This document shows positions 5,295-62,886 of a stretch of DNA of 64,000 nt, piece by piece. The stretch's first letter is position 1. Each line of letters begins with the position of its first letter. The notes beneath the pieces were generated by a model. The model saw only the letters and a list, made by a program, of their open reading frames with translations, was not told the DNA's origin and did not search any database. Position numbers and translations under genes: made by a program. This DNA is from Minisyncoccota bacterium (lineage in GTDB: Bacteria; Patescibacteriota; Minisyncoccia; Phycocordibacterales; UBA9973): positions 32,430-96,429 of the forward strand of contig JAGOQQ010000004.1 in NCBI GenBank assembly GCA_017991395.1. The letters are read 5' to 3'.

Positions 5295-5906
5295 ATGAAC
5301 AAAGATGATGAAATCAAAGACCAAGAGGAATTGGAAGTGCAAAACGTAGCTCCAGAAATCCCTGCAGAAGACGAGGATGATATTGTCGAATTTGTCTACA
5401 ACGAGGACGGAGAGGAAGACTTGAAAGCAACACTTAAAAAACTCAGAAAGGATATCAAAGAAGCTCGCAAGGAAAAAGCAGAGTATCTTGATGGATGGCA
5501 GAGAGCAAAAGCAGACTATCAAAATTATAAAAATGCAGAAGGTGAACGATTGGTATCGTATGCCGTAAATGCAAAGGAAAGATTGATTGATTCACTTTTG
5601 CCTGCACTTGATAGTTTTGATATGGCAATGTCCAACAAAGAAGCATGGGAAAAAGTTGATGCAAATTGGCGAACCGGCGTGGAATATATTTACAATCAAT
5701 TCATTACGTCACTTGGTGAAAATGGAGTGAGTACTATCGACAAGACAGATGTGCCATTTGACCCAAATCTCCATCAGTCTATCGAAACAGAAGACACAGA
5801 CGATGAATCAAAAGATCACACAATCGCACGAATCGTTCAAAAAGGTTACAAAATGGCTGACCGAATCATCCGCCCAGCGAGAGTGGTGGTGTATATAAAA
5901 AAATAA
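5295..5906 (+). CDS. grpE: Nucleotide exchange factor GrpE
   Basis: Acidic N-terminus and coiled coil (LKKLRKDIKEARKEKAEYLDGWQRAKADYQNYK). C-terminal beta domain with FDPNLHQSIE...GY.M.DRIIRPARVVV. Confidence 0.85.
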   Translation: MNKDDEIKDQEELEVQNVAPEIPAEDEDDIVEFVYNEDGEEDLKATLKKLRKDIKEARKEKAEYLDGWQRAKADYQNYKNAEGERLVSYAVNAKERLIDSLLPALDSFDMAMSNKEAWEKVDANWRTGVEYIYNQFITSLGENGVSTIDKTDVPFDPNLHQSIETEDTDDESKDHTIARIVQKGYKMADRIIRPARVVVYIKK

Positions 5907-10849: not shown

Positions 10850-11935
10850 ATGTCAAAAGATTATTACGAAATTCTTGGTGTTTCAAAATCTGCGTCAAAG
10901 GACGAGATAAAGAAAGCCTTTCATAAACAAGCTCACAAATATCACCCAGACAAAAAGGATGGTGATGAGGCAAAATTCAAGGAGGCAAACGAAGCCTACC
11001 AGACTCTTTCTGATGACAGTAAACGCGCACAGTACGATCAATTCGGAAGTGCTGGACCACAAGGGTTTGGTGGAGGTGGATTCGGTGGCGGACAAGGTGG
11101 CTTTGGAGGATTTGATTTTTCTCAAGGACAGGGTGGTTTTGATATGGGCGATCTAAACGATATTTTCTCAGATTTTTTTGGTGGTGGAATGGGCGGAGGC
11201 CGAGGTCGCGCACGACGAGGACGTGATATTTCAACCGAGATTTCAATTTCATTTGAAGAATCAGTGTTTGGTGTAACAAAAAAAATTGCCATTTCAAAAC
11301 AATCTGCATGTAAGACATGTAAAGGATCAGGTGCAAAAGATTCTGGTGTGGAAACGTGCAAAAAATGTAAGGGTGCTGGTCAGATTCGAGAAGCAAAGCG
11401 TACATTTATGGGAACGTTTGAAACAAATCGAATGTGTGATGACTGTGATGGCGCAGGAAAAGTTCCAAAAGAAAAATGTGCTACGTGTCATGGAAGTGGC
11501 GTCACCAAAGGTCAAGAAGAATTAGAAGTGAATATTCCCGCTGGAATACAAAATGGACAAATGGTACGACTCACAGGCATGGGTGAAGCAATCACACGCG
11601 GACAAGCAGGAGATTTGTTTATCAAAATAAATATTCCTCCGCACAAAACATTTACACGTGACGGATTCAACCTCCACACCGATCTTCATGTCAAACTCAC
11701 CGACGCACTCCTGGGTGCAGAACACACACTCCACACACTTGATGGAGATGTCAAAATAAAAATCCCAGAAGGAATAACTCATGGCGAAATGTTGCGTATA
11801 AAAGAACGTGGTGTTCCAAACGGTGCACGAGGAAAGCGAGGTGATATCTATGTCCGCGTTCTGATTAAAATCCCTCACAAACTCTCACGCAAAGAAAGAG
11901 AAATTGTGGAGGGACTTAAAGAAGAGGGATTGTAA
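10850..11935 (+). CDS. dnaJ: Chaperone DnaJ
   Basis: J-domain (YYEILGV...HPDK), G/F-rich linker, and four CxxCxGxG zinc-finger repeats. Confidence 0.95.
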
Positions 11936-12086
11936 TAAAAGGCAGGAGTTCAGAAGAGCGATAAGTGGAGAATAACTATAAGCGTAATATTTTTTAAAAC
12001 ACAAAGTTTATCTTGTGTCAATTTGACATTAATAATAAAAAAAGTATTATTATTAGTAATATGTTCAATCTATAAAAATAAATATC

Positions 12087-12278
12087 ATGATGAAAAGTTC
12101 TTTAAAACAAGAAACTCCTTACAAAAAGGTGCAACTTCCTGGCTTAGTCGGGGGTGGTTTAAAAAAATTGACAGGCAGAGTACCGCTCGTTTTAAAAAAA
12201 ATGGTTCGTTATCCTGGTGCTACTAGTTGGACGACTAGCGGTACTCATAACGATATTGATGGGTCTGACACAACTTGA
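12087..12278 (+). CDS. Candidate graspetide (microviridin-like) precursor peptide
   Basis: 63-aa ORF 78 nt upstream of the MdnC-like ATP-grasp and on the same strand. TTGACA at 12023 with a -10-like element near 12047. C-terminal Thr/Ser/Asp-rich stretch TSWTTSGTHNDIDGSDTT. Confidence 0.35.
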   Translation: MMKSSLKQETPYKKVQLPGLVGGGLKKLTGRVPLVLKKMVRYPGATSWTTSGTHNDIDGSDTT

Positions 12279-12355
12279 TAAAATATTTAACACACTATTA
12301 AAACACCTGCCTTTGTGGGTGTTTTGTTCATTTAAAACAGTATAAAAAAATAAAA

Positions 12356-13324
12356 ATGATATTAGCACTAGGTACATCGGCATCTCAAGATTTTGTTGCA
12401 TTTAAGGCAATAGAGAGTGAGTTAAAAAAACGAAAAAAGGAGATAATCTTATTCAAACAAGATTTATGTTTAAATAATGAAATTATTTCATATAAATTTA
12501 GCGAAAATGGTTCGTTTGTTCCATTAATTAATATTGAAGGAAAAAATTATGACATTGGCAGTTTTGAAGGCGCCATCAATCTTCACCCAATGCTTCCGAG
12601 AGAGCTCTTGGGTTTTTCAAAAATTAGCTTACGGCAATTTATCTGGAAACAATTTTATGAAATGCGTAGAGGTGTCTGGATGATTCTTAAAGATAAAAAA
12701 TGGCTAAATGATCCATTTAGTGCAGAGATGGCAGAGAATAAAGTATTTCAATTAGTTGCTGCTCAAAAAGTTGGGCTAACTATTCCGGCAACGCTAATTT
12801 CGTCATCTCCTTCAGATGTAAAAAATTTTTATTTAAAATGTGGCGGATTAATGATTAACAAAATTTTGTCTACTAGTCCAATTTTAGATAAAGTTACGTT
12901 TACTCACCTTGTTGATGAATGCGATATTGATGATAATTTGTCTATCCTCATTTCCCCAGCTATATTCCAGCCTCTTATTAAGAAAGAGTATGAATTAAGA
13001 ATAACTATAGTTGGAAATAAGTTGTTTTCAACCAAAATAAATTCACAGGAAAATTTGGCAACATCGATAGATTGGAGGGTTCATCCTGTAAAAAAGAAGT
13101 CATCTATACAAATGGAGCCGACTTTAATTCCACTAGAGCTAGAAGTTAAAATTCTTAATTTAATGAGACTATTAAACTTAAATTATGGTGCAGTTGACAT
13201 GATAGTCACACCACAAGGTGATTATGTGTTTCTCGAGATTAATCCATCAGGTCAGTGGTACTTTATACAAGAGAATACACGTTGCAATGATATTGCAAGT
13301 GCAATAGCAGATTTTTTATGCTAG
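12356..13324 (+). CDS. ATP-grasp RiPP maturase, MdnC/MvdD-like (graspetide ester/amide ligase)
   Basis: ELRITIVGNKLFSTKINSQ...DWR and LNYGAVDMIVTPQGDYVFLEINPSGQW match recalled microviridin ATP-grasp ligase MdnC segments (LRITIVG..INSQ..DWR; LNYGAIDMIVTP...FLEINP). N-terminal leader-binding region ILALGTSASQDFVAF. Confidence 0.8.
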   Translation: MILALGTSASQDFVAFKAIESELKKRKKEIILFKQDLCLNNEIISYKFSENGSFVPLINIEGKNYDIGSFEGAINLHPMLPRELLGFSKISLRQFIWKQFYEMRRGVWMILKDKKWLNDPFSAEMAENKVFQLVAAQKVGLTIPATLISSSPSDVKNFYLKCGGLMINKILSTSPILDKVTFTHLVDECDIDDNLSILISPAIFQPLIKKEYELRITIVGNKLFSTKINSQENLATSIDWRVHPVKKKSSIQMEPTLIPLELEVKILNLMRLLNLNYGAVDMIVTPQGDYVFLEINPSGQWYFIQENTRCNDIASAIADFLC

Positions 13325-13325
13325 T

Positions 13326-13811
13326 ATGGTAAACATGGTAATTCAATTACCATGTTTTTTTATGCAAAATAATATTTTACAGAACTTAATAAGTGAAATG
13401 TGTGAAATTGATCAAAAAACAAGAAAAATGGCTTTTGACCAAATTCAAAAAACAGGGGAAAGCTTCTCTATTTTTAATCTCATGATCTACTCTGTTGACG
13501 GCATTCATCAGCAGAGAATAAAACAAATTATAAAAGAATATGGTTATCCAACTAAAGAAAAAATTGGAGTAGATATTCTTAAGAAATTTTGGCTAATCGT
13601 TCAACATCAAGATATGGATGTATTTTTACAAAGAGAATGTCTGAAGAATTGTGATTTTGACATAGAAGAAAAGTCTCATCTGACGGATCGTGTCTTAATC
13701 AATGAGGGAAAAAAGCAAATGTATGGAACTCAGTTTTCGCAAGATATATCTGATGAAGACAGAATTATTTATAATAAAAACAGAGCAGAGGTCGGGTTGG
13801 TTGCTATATAG
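13326..13811 (+). CDS. Hypothetical protein, translationally coupled to the ATP-grasp
   Basis: Starts 2 nt after the ATP-grasp stop. No recognisable motifs. Confidence 0.45.
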   Translation: MVNMVIQLPCFFMQNNILQNLISEMCEIDQKTRKMAFDQIQKTGESFSIFNLMIYSVDGIHQQRIKQIIKEYGYPTKEKIGVDILKKFWLIVQHQDMDVFLQRECLKNCDFDIEEKSHLTDRVLINEGKKQMYGTQFSQDISDEDRIIYNKNRAEVGLVAI

Positions 13812-14020: not shown

Positions 14021-14626
14021 GTGTTTGTTCATTTAGAATTGAATATGAAAAATATCAAAACTCAATCAGTAATGTTTCTTCAAGGAAAGAGACTTTATCT
14101 GCGCCCTGTCGAGCGAAACGACATTCCTTTACTTCAAAAATGGATAAATGATCCAGAAGTAAGAAAATATCTCAATAATTCTTTTCCAATGTCATTAACA
14201 GACGAAGAAAAATATTTTGAAAGAATTTCGAATAGTTCGAAAAATGATGTTACTCTTGCGGTGGTAAGAAAGAAAGACAATGTACTACTTGGAAGTGTTG
14301 GTCTACATAAGATTGATTATATAAACGGCACTGCTTCTACGGGTTCAATGTATGGTAGAAAGTCGGAGTGGAACAAAGGGTATGCAACCGAAGCAAAAAT
14401 GATTTTGCTTGAGTATGCTTTTATGACACTTAATTTAAGGAAAATTTGCAGCGTTGCAATTTGTGGCAATATTGGGAGTATAAAACACAATATGAATTGT
14501 GGTTACAAGAAGGAAGGCATTAGGAAAAGTCATTATTTTCGTGACGGACAATATCATGACGCTGTGATGCTTGCGGTTTTCAAAAAAGATTGGGAAGAAG
14601 TTTTGAAGAAAAATTCAAAAAAATAA
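14021..14626 (+). CDS. GNAT family N-acetyltransferase (RimJ/RimL-like)
   Basis: KRLYLRPVERNDIPLLQKWINDPEV is the GNAT N-terminal pattern, and the acetyl-CoA-binding core is downstream. Terminator at 14632-14660. Confidence 0.7.
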   Translation: MFVHLELNMKNIKTQSVMFLQGKRLYLRPVERNDIPLLQKWINDPEVRKYLNNSFPMSLTDEEKYFERISNSSKNDVTLAVVRKKDNVLLGSVGLHKIDYINGTASTGSMYGRKSEWNKGYATEAKMILLEYAFMTLNLRKICSVAICGNIGSIKHNMNCGYKKEGIRKSHYFRDGQYHDAVMLAVFKKDWEEVLKKNSKK

Positions 14627-14715
14627 ACAGAAAAGGGCAGAGATGCCCTTTTTTTTATTTTTGACAAATAGAGTTTTTTGTTATATTATAATTAAAAATT
14701 AAAAACTAAATACAA

Positions 14716-15972
14716 ATGATAACACTACCTAAATTACCTGAAGTTCACATTGGAAAACTTTCCAATGGTATGAGATACGTCTTTGTTCCCGATAAAGGGA
14801 GCGGATTGATTCACGCTGAAGTGCTTGGATATGCCGGCTCAATACTGGAAACAGACCCAGGCACTTATGGAGTCTCTCATTTCCTTGAACATGTAGTTTG
14901 CAATGGTACAAAGAGTTTTCCTGATGAAGATGTACTTACTAATGAGTTTGATTTAATTGGAGCAAGTCGAAATGCAGTGACTGGTTTTACTACAAAAAGG
15001 TATCACCTTCAAACGGATTCTTCAAAAAGCAGAGAAGTAATAAAGTATATTTCTGAATGCATCCTTTGTCCAATTTTAGATAACACTATTATTGAAAGAG
15101 AAAGGTTGGTAATTCAAAGCGAGTTAAAAGATTCTCTTTCTAAGCCATTAGTGCGTGGGAGTATGAACTCTAGAAAAAAGTCGTTTGATCTTGCTCGTTT
15201 ACACGAACATAATCTTGGGACACATGAATCAATTGCAAATATCAAAAGAGATGATCTAATAAATTTTCACCAAAAATTTTATATGCCTTCAAATTTTATA
15301 TTTGGAGTTATGGGTGACATTGATCATTTGGAACTAGTGAGTATTCTAGAAGATGAAATCGGATTCGCACCAAGTGGTAATACGCAAAGTAAAATTTGGG
15401 TTGAGCACAAAAAGAATGGTAAATTTATTTCTTCTGATAAAGGCATCGAAAATTCATCAGTTGAAATCTGTTGGCCACTAACTCAAGAGCAAATATTACA
15501 CGATTACCACAACATATGTAAGCTAATTTCTGTTCTTGGGTCAATGAGAAGGTCAAGACTCTATAGGGTATTAAGAGAAAAACTCTCATCTGTGTACGGT
15601 GTGCATATGGGTTTATCCGGATACAGTAGCTTCAGTTCGTTTTGTTCGATCGATACATCGACAGACAGAGATTCTGTTGATGCTGTCATTGATGCATCTA
15701 TTGAATGTGTGAGATCTTTCTTAAATGATGGGCCTACTGAGAAGGAGATTACGCAGAGCATTAACCAAACAGTATTTTGGATGAAGAAAGAAATGGCTAA
15801 TAAAATGTCTGTACTCAAAAATACAATGGGTGACGTCCTATTTAATCCAAACTTCGTATCTGTAGAAAATGAAATAAATAAATTATTGTCATTTGAAAAA
15901 GATGAGTCGATTGAGGCATTCCGCTCGTGTATTAAGGGAGATCCAGTGATTATAGTTAGAAATCCTGTTTAA
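14716..15972 (+). CDS. M16 (pitrilysin) family zinc peptidase
   Basis: Inverted zinc motif HxxEH in GVSHFLEHVV near the N-terminus. Size fits one M16 unit. Confidence 0.65.
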   Translation: MITLPKLPEVHIGKLSNGMRYVFVPDKGSGLIHAEVLGYAGSILETDPGTYGVSHFLEHVVCNGTKSFPDEDVLTNEFDLIGASRNAVTGFTTKRYHLQTDSSKSREVIKYISECILCPILDNTIIERERLVIQSELKDSLSKPLVRGSMNSRKKSFDLARLHEHNLGTHESIANIKRDDLINFHQKFYMPSNFIFGVMGDIDHLELVSILEDEIGFAPSGNTQSKIWVEHKKNGKFISSDKGIENSSVEICWPLTQEQILHDYHNICKLISVLGSMRRSRLYRVLREKLSSVYGVHMGLSGYSSFSSFCSIDTSTDRDSVDAVIDASIECVRSFLNDGPTEKEITQSINQTVFWMKKEMANKMSVLKNTMGDVLFNPNFVSVENEINKLLSFEKDESIEAFRSCIKGDPVIIVRNPV

Positions 15973-22838: not shown

Positions 22839-23843
22839 ATGGAGAAAAAACTTTTAATAATTAGCAATTCTGATGAATTGTATTATTACAAACCCGTTAT
22901 TAAGGTTATTAATGAGATTTACAATCACGATGTGTATGTATTTGATTTCAATCAATATCCACGCACTGCGACAATGTCGGTGTCATTAAGTAATAGCAGG
23001 AAAGTGTGTGGGTCACTCAAAACGACACAGTGGAGTAAAGGGCAATCAAGAAAAGGTGTCATGCTTGAAATTAATGATGTATTTAAAGTGTGGCCGATAC
23101 GCATTGGTAATACCAATATAAGCCCTGAACTAGATCCTGTCTCTGCTTTTTTTGCAAAAAAGCAGGCGCACTATGCGATTGAGTCTTTGCTTGCACTTTT
23201 TGAGTGTGAGGTAATAAATCCTCCACGTATCGCTAGATTTGTACAGCACAATAAGTTATATCAATTAGAAATTGCAAAATGGGCAGGATTATCGATTCCC
23301 GATACACTAGTATCATCCAATTATTCTGATGTGTGTGAGTTTGCAGAAAAATGTGGTGGTAGTATGTTAGTAAAATCAATATACACAATGCCGTTCTTAA
23401 ACGAAGACACCAAGGAAATGTTTGGTATATATTCAAGTATTATTACAAAAAGAGAACTTACTTCCTTTTCAGTAAAAGCTTGTCCAAATATCTATCAAGC
23501 ATATATTGAAAAGAAAGTGGAACTACGGATTTCGTACGCCAATGGGAAAATTATGACTTGTTCCATTGATTCGCAATTAAGCGAAAAAACCAAGATTGAT
23601 TGGCGTAATTATGACTTTGGTAATGTTAAACATACTACTTACAAATTACCTAAAGACATTCAGAGAACACTTGTAAAATATATGACACGCATAGGGTTAA
23701 AGTATGGGCAAATAGACATGATACTTACCCCTAATGACGAGTATGTATTTTTGGAAGTAAATCCGTCTGGGCAATGGGGATGGATTCAAGGATTGACTGG
23801 CCTTGAGATTGATCATTCAATTGCTAAGATGCTCATTGAATAG
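22839..23843 (+). CDS. Second ATP-grasp RiPP maturase, MdnB/MdnC-like
   Basis: VELRISYANGKIMTCSIDSQ...DWRNY and LKYGQIDMILTPNDEYVFLEVNPSGQW. N-terminus LLIISNSDELYYYKPVIKVINEI. Paralogous to the 12356 ATP-grasp gene. Confidence 0.8.
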   Translation: MEKKLLIISNSDELYYYKPVIKVINEIYNHDVYVFDFNQYPRTATMSVSLSNSRKVCGSLKTTQWSKGQSRKGVMLEINDVFKVWPIRIGNTNISPELDPVSAFFAKKQAHYAIESLLALFECEVINPPRIARFVQHNKLYQLEIAKWAGLSIPDTLVSSNYSDVCEFAEKCGGSMLVKSIYTMPFLNEDTKEMFGIYSSIITKRELTSFSVKACPNIYQAYIEKKVELRISYANGKIMTCSIDSQLSEKTKIDWRNYDFGNVKHTTYKLPKDIQRTLVKYMTRIGLKYGQIDMILTPNDEYVFLEVNPSGQWGWIQGLTGLEIDHSIAKMLIE

Positions 23844-23860
23844 TAAAAACCCTTTGGAAT

Positions 23861-24700
23861 TTAATTTCCAGGGGGTTTTCTTAATCCTAATTCAATTAAA
23901 TATGGCATTGTCATTTCTTCAAATGTCGGTTCGTATTTAATTAACTTTTCAAATACAGTTACGAACTTTTTTTTAATCGTACTCAACATTTCTTTATTAT
24001 TCTTTTTTAGCTTTTCGTACATGTACAGTCTCGCAAGATAATTTTGATACGCTGAGTACAAACTCATGACTGAACTTTTTTCTGACAATTTATTTTCATA
24101 CGATAGGAGTTTTTTAAACCCGACAGTAGTTTCAAGATTGATTTTCTTTTTGTCCAAGACTAAACTAGCAATATGATTTAAAACTTTACCTGCTTTTTTA
24201 TAAGAAAGTATCAACATTGAAACATCTTTTGCACTCAGTGAATTTTTGCCGTTTGAATAAAAATAATTAGAAATTCTTTTGTATGTTTCAAAGTCATTTG
24301 ACAAAGTATGGTTATATATATCAAATACCGCACTTGCGACATGTCGTGAGGTAGGGAAAACACTCAACATTTTATCTGCAATCGCTTCGTTCGTAGTTTG
24401 TGTAAAAAATTGGTATCCTGAAAGAATCAATGTTTTGTTTTTGGTAGTAGAAATTTGGTCAATCAAACTCAAATACAAGCTCGCCCAATCTTCAGTAAGA
24501 ATTTGTTCATTGTAGTTGGTCTCAAGCTCGAGTAGTAAATTGGTTAACTTTTTATTATGAATGTCGGTATGTGTGGCAATTTCCTCCTCTGATAACTCAA
24601 TAGAATAAAGAATTTTCGAAAAATCTTCAATAATTTTGTAGTATTTTCTTTTGAAGACTAGTAATGAGTTCATACTGGACATTATTGCATAAAAAAACAA
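23861..24700 (-). CDS. Hypothetical protein
   Basis: ORF downstream of the small peptide gene on the minus strand. Convergent on the ATP-grasp, with the bidirectional hairpin 23848-23880 between them. Confidence 0.4.
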   Translation of the reverse strand: MFFYAIMSSMNSLLVFKRKYYKIIEDFSKILYSIELSEEEIATHTDIHNKKLTNLLLELETNYNEQILTEDWASLYLSLIDQISTTKNKTLILSGYQFFTQTTNEAIADKMLSVFPTSRHVASAVFDIYNHTLSNDFETYKRISNYFYSNGKNSLSAKDVSMLILSYKKAGKVLNHIASLVLDKKKINLETTVGFKKLLSYENKLSEKSSVMSLYSAYQNYLARLYMYEKLKKNNKEMLSTIKKKFVTVFEKLIKYEPTFEEMTMPYLIELGLRKPPGN

Positions 24701-24737
24701 AAGTAGGCAATAAGTGAATATTGCCTACTGAATTGAA

Positions 24738-24947
24738 TTAGTCTCCTTCGTCAAACTTATAATCGCTCTTTACTCCTGTTGCGTAATGAGTGTGGCAACC
24801 TGCAGCTGCGCATACTCCGGGAGATGTTTGAGTTGGAATTGGTTTAAGTTGACCAATAAGTAGTGGTTTTCGCTTGTTTCTCAACAAGGATTCATTAAAG
24901 ACAGTAATTTTTGATTCACGTACTGCTTGCTTTGATGATGTTTTCAT
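24738..24947 (-). CDS. Small 69-aa protein, candidate RiPP precursor
   Basis: C-terminal TGVKSDYKFDEGD contains the Thr/Lys/Ser/Asp/Glu set of microviridin cores (TxKxPSDxEE). Consensus promoter immediately upstream. Confidence 0.3.
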   Translation of the reverse strand: MKTSSKQAVRESKITVFNESLLRNKRKPLLIGQLKPIPTQTSPGVCAAAGCHTHYATGVKSDYKFDEGD

Positions 24948-62442: not shown

Positions 62443-62886
62443 TTATTGCTTTTCAATTACGAGTGTAAATGTAGATTTGTGTCCTTCGATTGATACAGTG
62501 ATCTCATGTGACCCAAGATCTTTTATTGGTGACGCCAAAACGAGTGATTCAGGCAACAGTGTGATGTGGTGAATCTTTTTGAGCTGATCCACAATATCCT
62601 TTTCATGAATCGCTTTAAACAAATTGCCTTTGTCGTTTGAAAGTGCCTTGAGTGTGACAATTTTGCCCGCAATATCTTCAAGATTTTTCTTCAACAAACT
62701 CATATGAATCTCTTGTTGCATTCGAGCTGTTTCCTTTATCAAATTTATCTTTGATACTTGCTTGTCAGTTGCTGGTTCTGCAAGCTTTTTTGGAATAAGA
62801 AAGTTTGCTGCATATCCATCATTCACTTCTTTGATATCGTATTTCTTTCCTATTTTTGGAACGTCTTTGAGTAGTATTACTTTCAT
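62443..62886 (-). CDS. rplI: 50S ribosomal protein L9
   Basis: MKVILLKDVPKIGKKYDIKEVNDGYAANFLIPKKLA. Confidence 0.9.
   Translation of the reverse strand: MKVILLKDVPKIGKKYDIKEVNDGYAANFLIPKKLAEPATDKQVSKINLIKETARMQQEIHMSLLKKNLEDIAGKIVTLKALSNDKGNLFKAIHEKDIVDQLKKIHHITLLPESLVLASPIKDLGSHEITVSIEGHKSTFTLVIEKQ

What the first reader, a model, noticed from the sequence alone, without database searches (positions are those of the whole stretch)
12023..12280. Candidate precursor gene with a frame-shifted internal DNA repeat and overlapping alternative ORF
Two overlapping ORFs occupy this stretch. Frame 12087 ends ...PGATSWTTSGTHNDIDGSDTT. Frame 12023 (TTG start) contains GATSWLSRGWFKK. At DNA level the segment ggtgcaacttcctggcttagtcggg (about 12128) and ggtgctactagttggacgactagcgg (about 12226) are imperfect copies read in different frames. 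This suggests a duplicated core cassette, with one copy frame-disrupted, or programmed alternative products. TTGACA at 12023 plus a -10-like element near 12047 favour transcription starting just before the 12087 ATG.
Basis: seen in the sequence. Interest (0 to 1): 0.55.

Follow-up and report, generated by a model that had tools for sequence, protein, structure and literature searches.

The report
Graspetide precursor gene in a CPR bacterium
The 63-codon reading frame starting at 12087 is a real gene for the precursor of a ring-forming modified peptide (a graspetide) made by the enzyme encoded next to it in a tiny uncultured "candidate phyla" bacterium; the overlapping second frame and its "frame-shifted repeat" are most likely coincidence, so this is an uncharacterised member of an already predicted kind.

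Summary
The sequence facts hold. Frame A (12087-12278, 63 aa) ends in ...PGATSWTTSGTHNDIDGSDTT. Frame B (12023-12226, TTG start) contains GATSWLSRGWFKK. TTGACA-16-TATTAT sits at 12023-12050. The second copy starts at 12216, not 12226.

Frame A is the precursor of a graspetide (omega-ester RiPP). An MvdC/MvdD-type ATP-grasp ligase (12356-13324) and a DUF6624 protein (13326-13811) follow it directly. In relatives from Patescibacteria MAGs, a small ORF upstream of the ligase keeps the same frame, with a P(F/L)(I/V)L leader motif and a C-terminal TT(S/T)GT-x-x-D-x-D-x-x-D core. Substitutions between strains and relatives are mainly synonymous in frame A. A hairpin after the gene is conserved, with compensatory changes.

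Frame B is not a gene. It starts inside the promoter, a 94.6%-identical strain lacks its start codon, and the nearest relative has stops throughout that frame. Its resemblance to the core is locally improbable (P about 0.001) but absent from 14 orthologues and not significant as DNA. An equal score occurs once more in this window, in meaningless antisense sequence.

The family is homologous to published graspetide "group 42" (CPR, DUF6624-associated), which has no characterised member. Verdict: new member of a known kind; modest interest.

The parts
12023..12050 (+). Sigma-70-like promoter: -35 TTGACA (12023-12028), 16-nt spacer, -10 TATTAT (12045-12050). It would start transcription about 30 nt before the 12087 ATG.
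   Evidence: 11 of 12 consensus matches. A consensus match only. Strain L085 has TTAACA at the -35 box.
12087..12278 (+). Graspetide precursor gene (frame A), 63 aa (62 if started at 12090). Deposited as hypothetical protein MBP6856509.1.
   Evidence: Conserved in frame and position upstream of the ligase. Substitutions are mostly synonymous. Gene callers call it in 4 independent assemblies.
12087..12176 (+). N-terminal leader extension (aa 1-30). It is long only in the window and L003 branch, and it is the most variable part of the peptide.
   Evidence: In the L003 lineage all amino-acid changes fall in the first 16 residues.
12180..12206 (+). Leader recognition motif VPLVLKKMV (aa 32-40). 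It corresponds to the family's P(F/L)(I/V)L-x-F-L-E motif. P33 and L36 are invariant.
   Evidence: Natural variant L34I at 12186.
12219..12275 (+). Predicted core peptide ATSWTTSGTHNDIDGSDTT (aa 45-63), following invariant G44. Conserved block TTSGTHNDIDGSD is at 12231-12269. T49, T50, G52, D58 and D61 are invariant in the subtype.
   Evidence: The leader/core boundary and the ester pairs are inferred, not shown.
12128..12184 (+). Stretch of the leader that, read in frame B (-1), gives GATSWLSRGWFKKIDRQST, resembling the core encoded at 12216-12272.
   Evidence: Locally improbable, not conserved, and not significant as DNA.
12023..12226 (+). ORF B (TTG start, 67 aa): a spurious overlapping ORF, not a gene.
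12299..12326 (+). Terminator/attenuator-like hairpin (AAAACACCTGCC / GGGTGTTTT + U-tract) between the precursor and ligase genes.
   Evidence: Conserved in L003 and L087, with AU-to-GC compensatory changes at two pairs.
12356..13324 (+). ATP-grasp peptide maturase (graspetide synthetase), 322 aa.
   Evidence: MvdC 3e-53, MvdD 4e-52, SAV_5884 type 7e-48. (CdnC 7mgv 4e-34, MdnB 5ig8, MdnC 5ig9). (CPR homologues at 40-50% identity).
13326..13811 (+). DUF6624 protein (161 aa; gene callers start it at 13335). It is the conserved third gene of the cluster, and its role is unknown.
   Evidence: PF20329, 3e-11. (next to the ligase in 15 of the 18 closest loci). (all-helical model, no fold match to solved structures). 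PMC13097080 reports DUF6624 enrichment in graspetide groups 18, 20, 23 and 42.

Best explanation
The stretch holds one real gene, frame A (12087-12278). It encodes the 63-aa precursor of a graspetide, a ribosomal peptide whose Thr/Ser and Asp side chains are joined into lactone rings by an ATP-grasp ligase. The cluster core is promoter, precursor, leaky terminator hairpin, ATP-grasp ligase and DUF6624.

Proposed mechanism:
1. (Inferred) The precursor is transcribed from its own promoter. The hairpin at 12299-12326 lets only part of the transcripts read into the ligase and DUF6624 genes, giving excess precursor.
2. (Inferred by analogy with MdnC/CdnC) The ligase binds the leader motif VPLVLKKMV.
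3. (Inferred from invariance) The ligase activates Asp carboxylates of the core with ATP and esterifies them with the hydroxyls of T49 and T50. The acceptors are D58 and D61, with T53 and D56 as a possible third pair.
4. (Not shown) The leader is removed, possibly after the invariant G44, and DUF6624 acts as a partner or tailoring protein. Neither step is established.

Frame B is a by-product of A/T-rich sequence with no stop codons in that frame. Its GATSW match to the core is coincidence, or at most a functionless relic.
For: - Ligase identity.
- A small ORF of the same family sits directly upstream of the ligase in L001-L008, L010, L013-L016 and L018. All have the leader P(F/L)(I/V)L motif and a C-terminal TTxGTxxDxDxxD core.
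- Purifying selection on frame A. Window versus L003 over the last 33 codons: 9/6/15 differences by codon position, with 10 synonymous codon changes. L087 versus L003 (93% identical DNA): three amino-acid changes, all in the first 16 residues, and three synonymous changes.
- Four other assemblies are base-identical and call the same ORF.
- The hairpin is conserved with compensatory changes.
- DUF6624 is syntenic in 15 of the 18 closest loci.
- Profile-profile homology to the published group 42 precursor type: probability 91%, E = 1e-6 (representative sequence from PMC13097080, SI Fig. S19).
- Against frame B: its start codon is lost in L085, L003 and L087 have stops throughout both alternative frames, no orthologue shows alternative-frame similarity, and the DNA repeat is not significant.
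- The genome shows no Shine-Dalgarno-like sequence upstream of any of 17 genes checked, so the lack of one before 12087 is uninformative.
Against: - No member of this family or of group 42 has been characterised, so cross-links, leader cleavage and activity are all inferred.
- The window's leader (PLVLKK) departs from the family consensus (PFILxFLE) and from the strict Phhx(1,2)h signature.
- The frame-B/core similarity is locally improbable (P about 0.001), and pure chance is not proven.
- The role of DUF6624 is unknown.
- No leader peptidase or exporter is conserved in the cluster.
Confidence: 0.82

Rival explanations
1. Evolutionary relic. The long N-terminal leader extension of the window and L003 branch arose by duplication of the core-encoding segment. 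The upstream copy decayed, staying in frame in L003 and becoming frame-shifted in the window. It now serves only as leader sequence. This concerns origin only and is compatible with the best explanation for present function.
For: The frame-B reading of 12128-12184 matches the window's own core with score 44, P about 0.001 or less under local nulls. The L003 N-extension resembles its own core in frame (GVMSLVT-GKKSD versus GAVSLTTSGTHSD, P = 0.019). Both core-like stretches lie just upstream of the VP(L/I)VLKK motif. P0143 may carry a second, in-frame leader-like motif (TPFLVENAE before KPFILNFLE), but the in-frame similarity test on it is not significant (P = 0.31).
Against: DNA similarity is not significant (P = 0.045-0.8). 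The Ser codons differ at all three bases. The frame-A reading of the same nucleotides is alignable in frame with L003 (PG, LV.G, KK), so L003 should share a frame-B relic, but its score is not significant (P = 0.07) and that frame is full of stops. A meaningless antisense segment of this window reaches an equal score. A scan of JGI metagenome contigs found no intermediate relatives of the precursor.
Confidence: 0.15
2. Programmed alternative product. A -1 ribosomal frameshift at C_AAA_AAG (12122-12128) moves ribosomes from frame A into frame B, producing MMKSSLKQETPYKK-GATSWLSRGWFKKIDRQSTARFKKNGSLSWCY alongside the normal precursor.
For: Read directly from the sequence: AAA AAG in frame A lies exactly before the GGT GCA ACT TCC TGG codons of frame B, and frame B equals frame A shifted by -1. 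Frame B stays open to 12226. The GATSW identity is at the protein level although the Ser codons differ.
Against: The heptamer is not a full X_XXY_YYZ site. The downstream RNA is no more stable than shuffles (z = +0.75). The product would lack the leader motif and nearly all acceptor residues. L003 has no such site and its -1 frame is closed. No orthologue shows the pattern.
Confidence: 0.02
3. ORF A is not the ligase's substrate. The ligase acts on a peptide encoded elsewhere (for example the small ORF at 24738-24947) or on a non-peptide substrate, and 12023-12280 is only promoter and leader DNA for the ligase operon.
For: The window holds a second ATP-grasp and a second candidate precursor. 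In L007, L009 and L011 either no precursor or no DUF6624 was found near the ligase by my filters.
Against: The peptide is conserved in frame and position next to this ligase clade across 14 loci, with coding-type substitution patterns. It has leader and core features typical of graspetide precursors.
Confidence: 0.03

Closest known systems
Graspetide 'group 42' of Carter, Ramesh, Saad, Mubarik & Mitchell 2026 (PMC13097080): 22 predicted clusters, many from candidate phyla, 82% with DUF6624. Representative precursor from Ca. Komeilibacteria: MKKNSTPKPLILDRLRQPIEDIYKGGEKAMEGFTTHGTPNDPDSGGTD.
   Same: ATP-grasp ligase plus DUF6624 with an upstream short precursor, in a Patescibacteria host. Same leader P-h-I/V-L motif. 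Same core skeleton T(T/S)xGTxx(D/E)xD. The profiles are homologous (hhalign probability 91%, E = 1e-6).
   Different: The window belongs to a short-spacer subtype that lacks the ~9-residue IVYEGE-type insertion between leader and core. Its third acidic residue is D at core position 13, not 15. Its ligase is only about 35% identical to ligases next to group-42-type precursors (L014-L018). Within the short-spacer subtype, the window and L003 have a basic leader (VLKK) and a 30-37-residue N-terminal extension. I could not test whether the published similarity network places this ligase inside group 42.
CPR graspetide clusters, branches 1 and 2, of Makarova et al. 2022 (PMC8939145).
   Same: Graspetide clusters in candidate-phyla-radiation bacteria. 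They share the leader signature Phhx(1,2)h and an associated uncharacterised protein ('cluster 23', with conserved His and Arg), which may correspond to DUF6624. That correspondence is my inference and was not tested.
   Different: Strings typical of this family's core (TTSGT, TSGTY, TSGTW, SIGTH, DEPDS and others) are absent from that paper's stored precursor files. This precursor family is therefore apparently not among their clusters.
Microviridins (graspetide group 1; MdnA/MdnB/MdnC, structures 5ig8 and 5ig9) and chryseoviridin (CdnC, 7mgv).
   Same: These are the closest solved ligases (E about 1e-34; NCBIfam MvdC/MvdD are the best models). The short hydrophobic leader motif after a Pro recalls PFFARFL (from my knowledge of microviridin leaders). 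A GNAT acetyltransferase lies nearby in the window, as MdnD does in microviridin clusters.
   Different: The core lacks TxKxPSDx(E/D)(D/E) and has no Lys, so no lactam is expected. There is one ligase next to the precursor, not two. Scores are far below the MvdC/MvdD equivalog cut-offs (181 versus 425 bits). There is no match to the microviridin precursor Pfam. The GNAT is not syntenic in relatives.
Plesiocin-type graspetides (group 2; PsnB, 7drm).
   Same: The leader motif KP(L/F)IL(D/N)(Y/F) also occurs in plesiocin-like multi-core precursors in the Makarova set. Two adjacent Thr donors (TT) recall the TTxxxxEE hairpin core (from my knowledge of plesiocin).
   Different: The ligase is only marginally similar to PsnB (E = 1e-3). 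This family has a single core rather than repeats, and Asp rather than Glu acceptors.

Membership tests
Graspetides (omega-ester-containing RiPPs) | A dedicated ATP-grasp ligase of the MvdC/MvdD/RimK-like type encoded next to the precursor. | tested here: met
   (TIGR04185 3e-53, TIGR04184 4e-52, TIGR04187 7e-48). (CdnC, MdnB, MdnC at about 1e-34). The gene starts 78 nt after the precursor stop codon.
Graspetides (omega-ester-containing RiPPs) | A short precursor with an N-terminal leader and a core carrying conserved Thr/Ser donors and Asp/Glu acceptors. | tested here: met
   T49, T50, D58 and D61 are invariant in 15 short-spacer members. The core is C-terminal.
Graspetides (omega-ester-containing RiPPs) | Leader signature Phhx(1,2)h (Makarova 2022). 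| tested here: inconclusive
   Most family members fit (PFILNF, PLILDF). The window (PLVLKKM) and L003 (PIVLKKL) have Lys where the final hydrophobic residue is expected.
Graspetides (omega-ester-containing RiPPs) | Side-chain ester or amide macrocycles in the mature product (loss of 18 Da per link). | not testable with these tools
   Needs co-expression and mass spectrometry.
Graspetide group 42 (PMC13097080) | Co-occurrence of the ligase with DUF6624. | tested here: met
   (PF20329, 3e-11). (15 of the 18 closest loci).
Graspetide group 42 (PMC13097080) | Precursor related to the group's representative/logo. | tested here: met
   (hhalign probability 91%, E = 1e-6). However, the window is a distinct short-spacer subtype.
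Graspetide group 42 (PMC13097080) | Ligase falls in the same similarity-network cluster (alignment score 70). | not testable with these tools
   The published network and member list are not held as text. The window ligase matches ligases next to group-42-type precursors only at E about 1e-50 to 1e-55, so a direct link at that threshold is doubtful.
Microviridins (group 1) | Core motif TxKxPSDx(E/D)(D/E) with a Lys for the lactam. | tested here: not met
   The core ATSWTTSGTHNDIDGSDTT has no Lys and no PSD. No Pfam or NCBIfam precursor model matches at E <= 1.
Microviridins (group 1) | Two ATP-grasp ligases (ester-forming and amide-forming) in one cluster. | tested here: not met
   Only one ligase lies next to the precursor. 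The second ligase of the window is 9.5 kb away, after unrelated genes, and appears to have its own candidate precursor.

The most novel reading that the evidence does not exclude
The leader's N-terminal extension is a frame-shifted ('overprinted') remnant of a duplicated core cassette. New leader sequence would then have been created from old core DNA, with L003 keeping the in-frame version. In the extreme version, the slippery-like C_AAA_AAG at 12122-12128 still lets a fraction of ribosomes read the old frame. Separately, the cluster may make a graspetide of unknown ring topology that needs the fold-orphan DUF6624 as a partner protein.
Probability: 0.15. Interest if true: 0.5.

Novelty: new member of a known kind. 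Interest (0 to 1): 0.3.

Why it matters
Graspetides from candidate-phyla-radiation bacteria have been predicted in two published censuses, but none has been made or tested. These organisms have very small genomes and live on other microbes, so a peptide they spend genes on probably matters for that interaction. This locus offers a compact, well-delimited construct for heterologous expression: precursor, one ligase and DUF6624. It also offers a refined family motif, with invariant residues P33, L36, G44, T49, T50, G52, D58 and D61. A direct test of whether DUF6624 is a required partner is possible. As a genome-scan result, the value lies in correct annotation of a 'hypothetical protein', not in a new principle.

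Tried and rejected
- DNA-level repeat: the repeat finder and local alignments did not recover the 12128/12216 pair as significant.
- In-frame leader duplication in the window (KKVQLPG versus KMVRYPG, 75-nt offset): not significant (P = 0.16).
- Strain variants to resolve the frames: four assemblies were 100% identical. The ENA variants differ at one site in the gene, which is non-synonymous in both frames.
- Intermediate relatives: a scan of JGI metagenome contigs with the window/L003 precursor alignment found none. The 5.8-billion-protein search shows no ligase hit between 50% and 100% identity.
- Known RNA families in 11850-12450: none.
- Frameshift-stimulating structure after 12128: none beyond shuffles.
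- GNAT, M16 peptidase, methyltransferase and EamA transporter as cluster members: rejected as conserved parts because they are not syntenic in relatives.
- Link between the two candidate precursors of the window: no significant similarity.
- Published censuses: the core and leader strings of this family were not found among the Makarova 2022 precursors. In Carter 2026, only the group 42 representative was found.

Full report
**1. What is in the sequence**

- Frame A is 12087..12278 (ATG, 63 aa): MMKSSLKQETPYKKVQLPGLVGGGLKKLTGRVPLVLKKMVRYPGATSWTTSGTHNDIDGSDTT.
- Frame B is 12023..12226 (TTG, 67 aa) and contains GATSWLSRGWFKK.
- The two GATSW-coding segments start at 12128 and 12216. They are 88 nt apart, so they lie in different frames, and frame B equals frame A shifted by -1.
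- TTGACA-16 nt-TATTAT lies at 12023-12050, matching 11 of 12 consensus positions. A terminator-like hairpin lies at 12299-12326.

**2. Surroundings**

Genes near the small ORF:
- Upstream is a dnaK-dnaJ region, with dnaJ at 10850..11935.
- Seventy-eight nucleotides after the frame-A stop begins a 322-aa ATP-grasp protein (12356..13324). Its best NCBIfam models are the ribosomal-peptide maturases MvdC (3e-53), MvdD (4e-52) and the SAV_5884 type (7e-48), all below their equivalog cut-offs.
- Its closest solved relatives are the graspetide ligases CdnC (7mgv), MdnB (5ig8), AMdnB (7m4s) and MdnC (5ig9), at about 1e-34.
- Two bases after the ligase stop begins a DUF6624 protein, 13326..13811.
- Further on come a GNAT acetyltransferase (14021..14626), an M16 peptidase (14716..15972), a weakly matching methyltransferase on the other strand, and an EamA transporter.

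The ligase is 100% identical to a protein of a 'Candidatus Pacebacteria' MAG. Its relatives, at 40-50% identity, are nearly all from Patescibacteria.

**3. Which frame is conserved**

I fetched 80 loci encoding ligase relatives.
- In L001-L008, L010, L013-L016 and L018 a small ORF lies directly upstream of the ligase. It shares with frame A a leader motif P(F/L)(I/V)L and a C-terminal core TT(S/T)GT-aromatic-x-D-x-D-x-x-D.
- A profile search of 5.8 billion proteins found 22 clusters of such peptides. All are unnamed and have no Pfam domain.
- In the short-spacer subtype, P33, L36, G44, T49, T50, G52, D58 and D61 (window numbering) are invariant.
- The nearest relative is L003 (ligase 50% identical). 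Its peptide ends ...VPIVLKKLVYYYGAVSLTTSGTHSDIDGADYT. Over the last 33 codons, the window and L003 differ at 9/6/15 first/second/third codon positions, and ten identical residues use different synonymous codons.
- Within the L003 lineage (L087, 93% DNA identity), the three amino-acid changes all lie in the first 16 residues, and the other three changes are synonymous.
- Both alternative frames of the L003 and L087 genes contain many stop codons.
- Gene callers called frame A (62-63 aa) in four further assemblies that are base-identical to the window. This also rules out homopolymer assembly errors in the A7 and A8 runs.
- The peptide is already deposited as hypothetical protein MBP6856509.1.
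- A natural variant (L085/L086) carries L34I, which gives the VPIVLKK seen in L003. It also has 12025 G>A, which turns frame B's TTG start into TTA.

Frame A is therefore the gene and frame B is not.

**4. The 'frame-shifted repeat'**

At DNA level the similarity is weak.
- 16 of 28 bases are identical ungapped.
- Gapped tests give P = 0.045-0.8.
- The two Ser codons, TCC and AGT, share no base.

At protein level the result was unexpected.
- The leader DNA read in frame B aligns with the peptide's own core as GATSWLSRGWFKKIDRQST / GATSWTTSGTHNDIDGSDT, with score 44.
- The nulls average 16-20. P < 1/3000 for shuffles and P = 0.0013 when the leader protein is held and codons are redrawn.

Three results temper this.
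- None of 14 orthologues shows any alternative-frame similarity to its own core. L003 gives P = 0.07 and the rest P > 0.1.
- The frame-A reading of the same nucleotides aligns in frame with L003: KKVQLPG...LVGGGLKK versus KNLAFPG...LVTG-KK. The CCTGG that gives 'SW' in frame B is thus explained by a conserved Pro-Gly in frame A.
- The same test applied to all about 50,000 open 192-nt segments of the window reaches 44 at one other locus, 62659-62847(+). That locus is antisense to a ribosomal-protein-like gene and is meaningless.

One point favours a relic. L003's N-terminal extension resembles its own core in frame (GVMSLVT-GKKSD versus GAVSLTTSGTHSD, P = 0.019).

I put about 15% on an ancient core duplication that decayed into leader sequence, and about 2% on programmed frameshifting. 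For the latter, read directly from the sequence, a slippery-like C_AAA_AAG sits at 12122-12128, just before the frame-B GATSW. However, no stabilising RNA structure follows it (z = +0.75), the site is absent from L003, and the product would lack the leader motif and the acceptor residues.

**5. Other conserved elements**

- The hairpin after the precursor gene is conserved in L003 and L087. Two pairs change from AU to GC on both sides, and a U-tract follows. This fits a leaky terminator that keeps precursor mRNA in excess over ligase mRNA, as is common in RiPP operons. That function is inferred.
- DUF6624 lies next to the ligase in 15 of the 18 closest loci. GNAT, M16, the methyltransferase and EamA are not syntenic. 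The conserved cluster is therefore precursor, ligase and DUF6624.
- A DUF6624 model built on 3 sequences has mean pLDDT 69.5, with residues 13-128 mostly at 75-92. It is all-helical and has no match among solved structures better than E = 1.5.
- The genome shows no Shine-Dalgarno-like sequence upstream of any of 17 genes checked, so the lack of one before 12087 is uninformative.
- No Rfam family lies in the region.

**6. Mechanism**

Shown:
- A conserved short ORF with leader and core features sits next to a graspetide-type ligase and is under purifying selection.

Inferred:
- The ligase binds the leader motif (aa 32-40), as microviridin and chryseoviridin ligases bind theirs.
- It phosphorylates the side-chain carboxylates of D58 and D61, and perhaps D56.
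- It forms omega-esters with T49 and T50, and perhaps T53, giving a bi- or tricyclic C-terminal peptide of about 19 residues.
- Invariant G52 would sit in the turn.
- Invariant G44 (xGA) may mark the leader/core junction.
- A conserved aromatic residue (H/W/Y) after T53 might be a protease-recognition residue if, like microviridins and plesiocin, the product inhibits proteases. This is a guess.

**7. Comparison with what is known**

- Makarova et al. 2022 (PMC8939145) described graspetide clusters in CPR bacteria. They report the leader signature Phhx(1,2)h and an associated uncharacterised protein, cluster 23. This family's core strings are absent from their stored precursor files.
- Carter et al. 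2026 (PMC13097080) expanded the RODEO census to 43 groups. [quoted passage not shown]
- Their group 42 has 22 clusters, 82% with DUF6624, many from candidate phyla. Its representative precursor is KPLILD...GFTTHGTPNDPDSGGTD.
- That precursor type equals the long-spacer subtype at L014-L018. It is homologous to the window's short-spacer subtype (hhalign probability 91%, E = 1e-6).
- The window is not a microviridin. Its core has no Lys or PSD motif, only one ligase is adjacent, and it matches no precursor model.
- No member of group 42 or of this subtype has been characterised.

**8. Verdict**

The finding is a correctly spotted RiPP precursor gene. Its alternative frame and frame-shifted repeat are most likely coincidental. 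It is a new, divergent member (basic leader, long N-terminal extension) of a bioinformatically known, experimentally untouched CPR graspetide family. Interest is modest, at 0.3. The parts most worth an experiment are the ring topology and the role of DUF6624.

Noticed in passing
window 22839-24947: A second MvdC/MvdD-type ATP-grasp ligase lies at 22839..23843(+) (NCBIfam 4.5e-55; 36% identical to the first over 212 aa). Beside it are a family-less 279-aa ORF (23861..24700, -) and a 69-aa ORF (24738..24947, -): MKTSSKQAVRESKITVFNESLLRNKRKPLLIGQLKPIPTQTSPGVCAAAGCHTHYATGVKSDYKFDEGD. The 69-aa ORF has a Phh-type motif and a T/S/K/D/E-rich C-terminus, so it may be a second graspetide precursor. It is not significantly similar to the first precursor (E = 0.37) and has no homologues in the 80 fetched loci.
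   Followed up: partly
L085 (ENA ERZ2226721, 773 nt) versus window 11526-12298: In this strain variant the dnaJ 3' end is about 9% divergent (38 differences, 36 at third codon positions). From 11936 to 12298 there are only 4 differences. This could be a recombination boundary, a recent sweep or transfer of the graspetide locus between strains, or a chimeric low-coverage contig.
   Followed up: partly
window, gene starts at 5295, 17347, 18694, 21100 and others: None of 17 gene starts has a Shine-Dalgarno-like sequence. Several have a TATAAT-like box only 7-12 nt before the ATG, which suggests leaderless or near-leaderless mRNAs in this genome.
   Followed up: no
L003 2749-2773: A perfect 11-bp palindrome (TCTTGCATTTC-CAG-GAAATGCAAGA) lies inside the leader-coding part of the L003 precursor gene (residues LAFPGNAR). 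The L087 variant breaks one pair (2753 G>A) without compensation. The window forms a weaker hairpin at the equivalent Pro-Gly region (12134-12155).
   Followed up: no
window 13326-13811: DUF6624 is the conserved third gene of the cluster. Its model is all-helical with a confident core, and it has no structural match among solved structures (best Foldseek E = 1.5). Residues invariant across the 3 aligned sequences include the motifs WxxxQHQDMD, LQRECL, LTDR and YGTQF. Its function is unknown.
   Followed up: partly
window 14021-15972: A GNAT acetyltransferase and an M16 (insulinase-type) peptidase follow the cluster. In microviridin clusters a GNAT acetylates the product, and an M16 peptidase could remove a leader. 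Neither gene is syntenic in related loci, so a role here is doubtful.
   Followed up: partly
P0143 (67-aa family member from metagenomes): This precursor appears to carry two leader-like motifs in frame (TPFLVENAE... then KPFILNFLE) before a single core. That would suggest leader segments can duplicate in this family, but the in-frame similarity test is not significant (P = 0.31).
   Followed up: no
window 62659-62847 (+): This is the only other place in the window where one frame resembles a neighbouring frame as strongly (score 44). It lies antisense to a ribosomal-protein-like gene (62443..62886, -) and the match is gapped and low-complexity, so it is a chance match. I used it as a calibration point.
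   Followed up: yes
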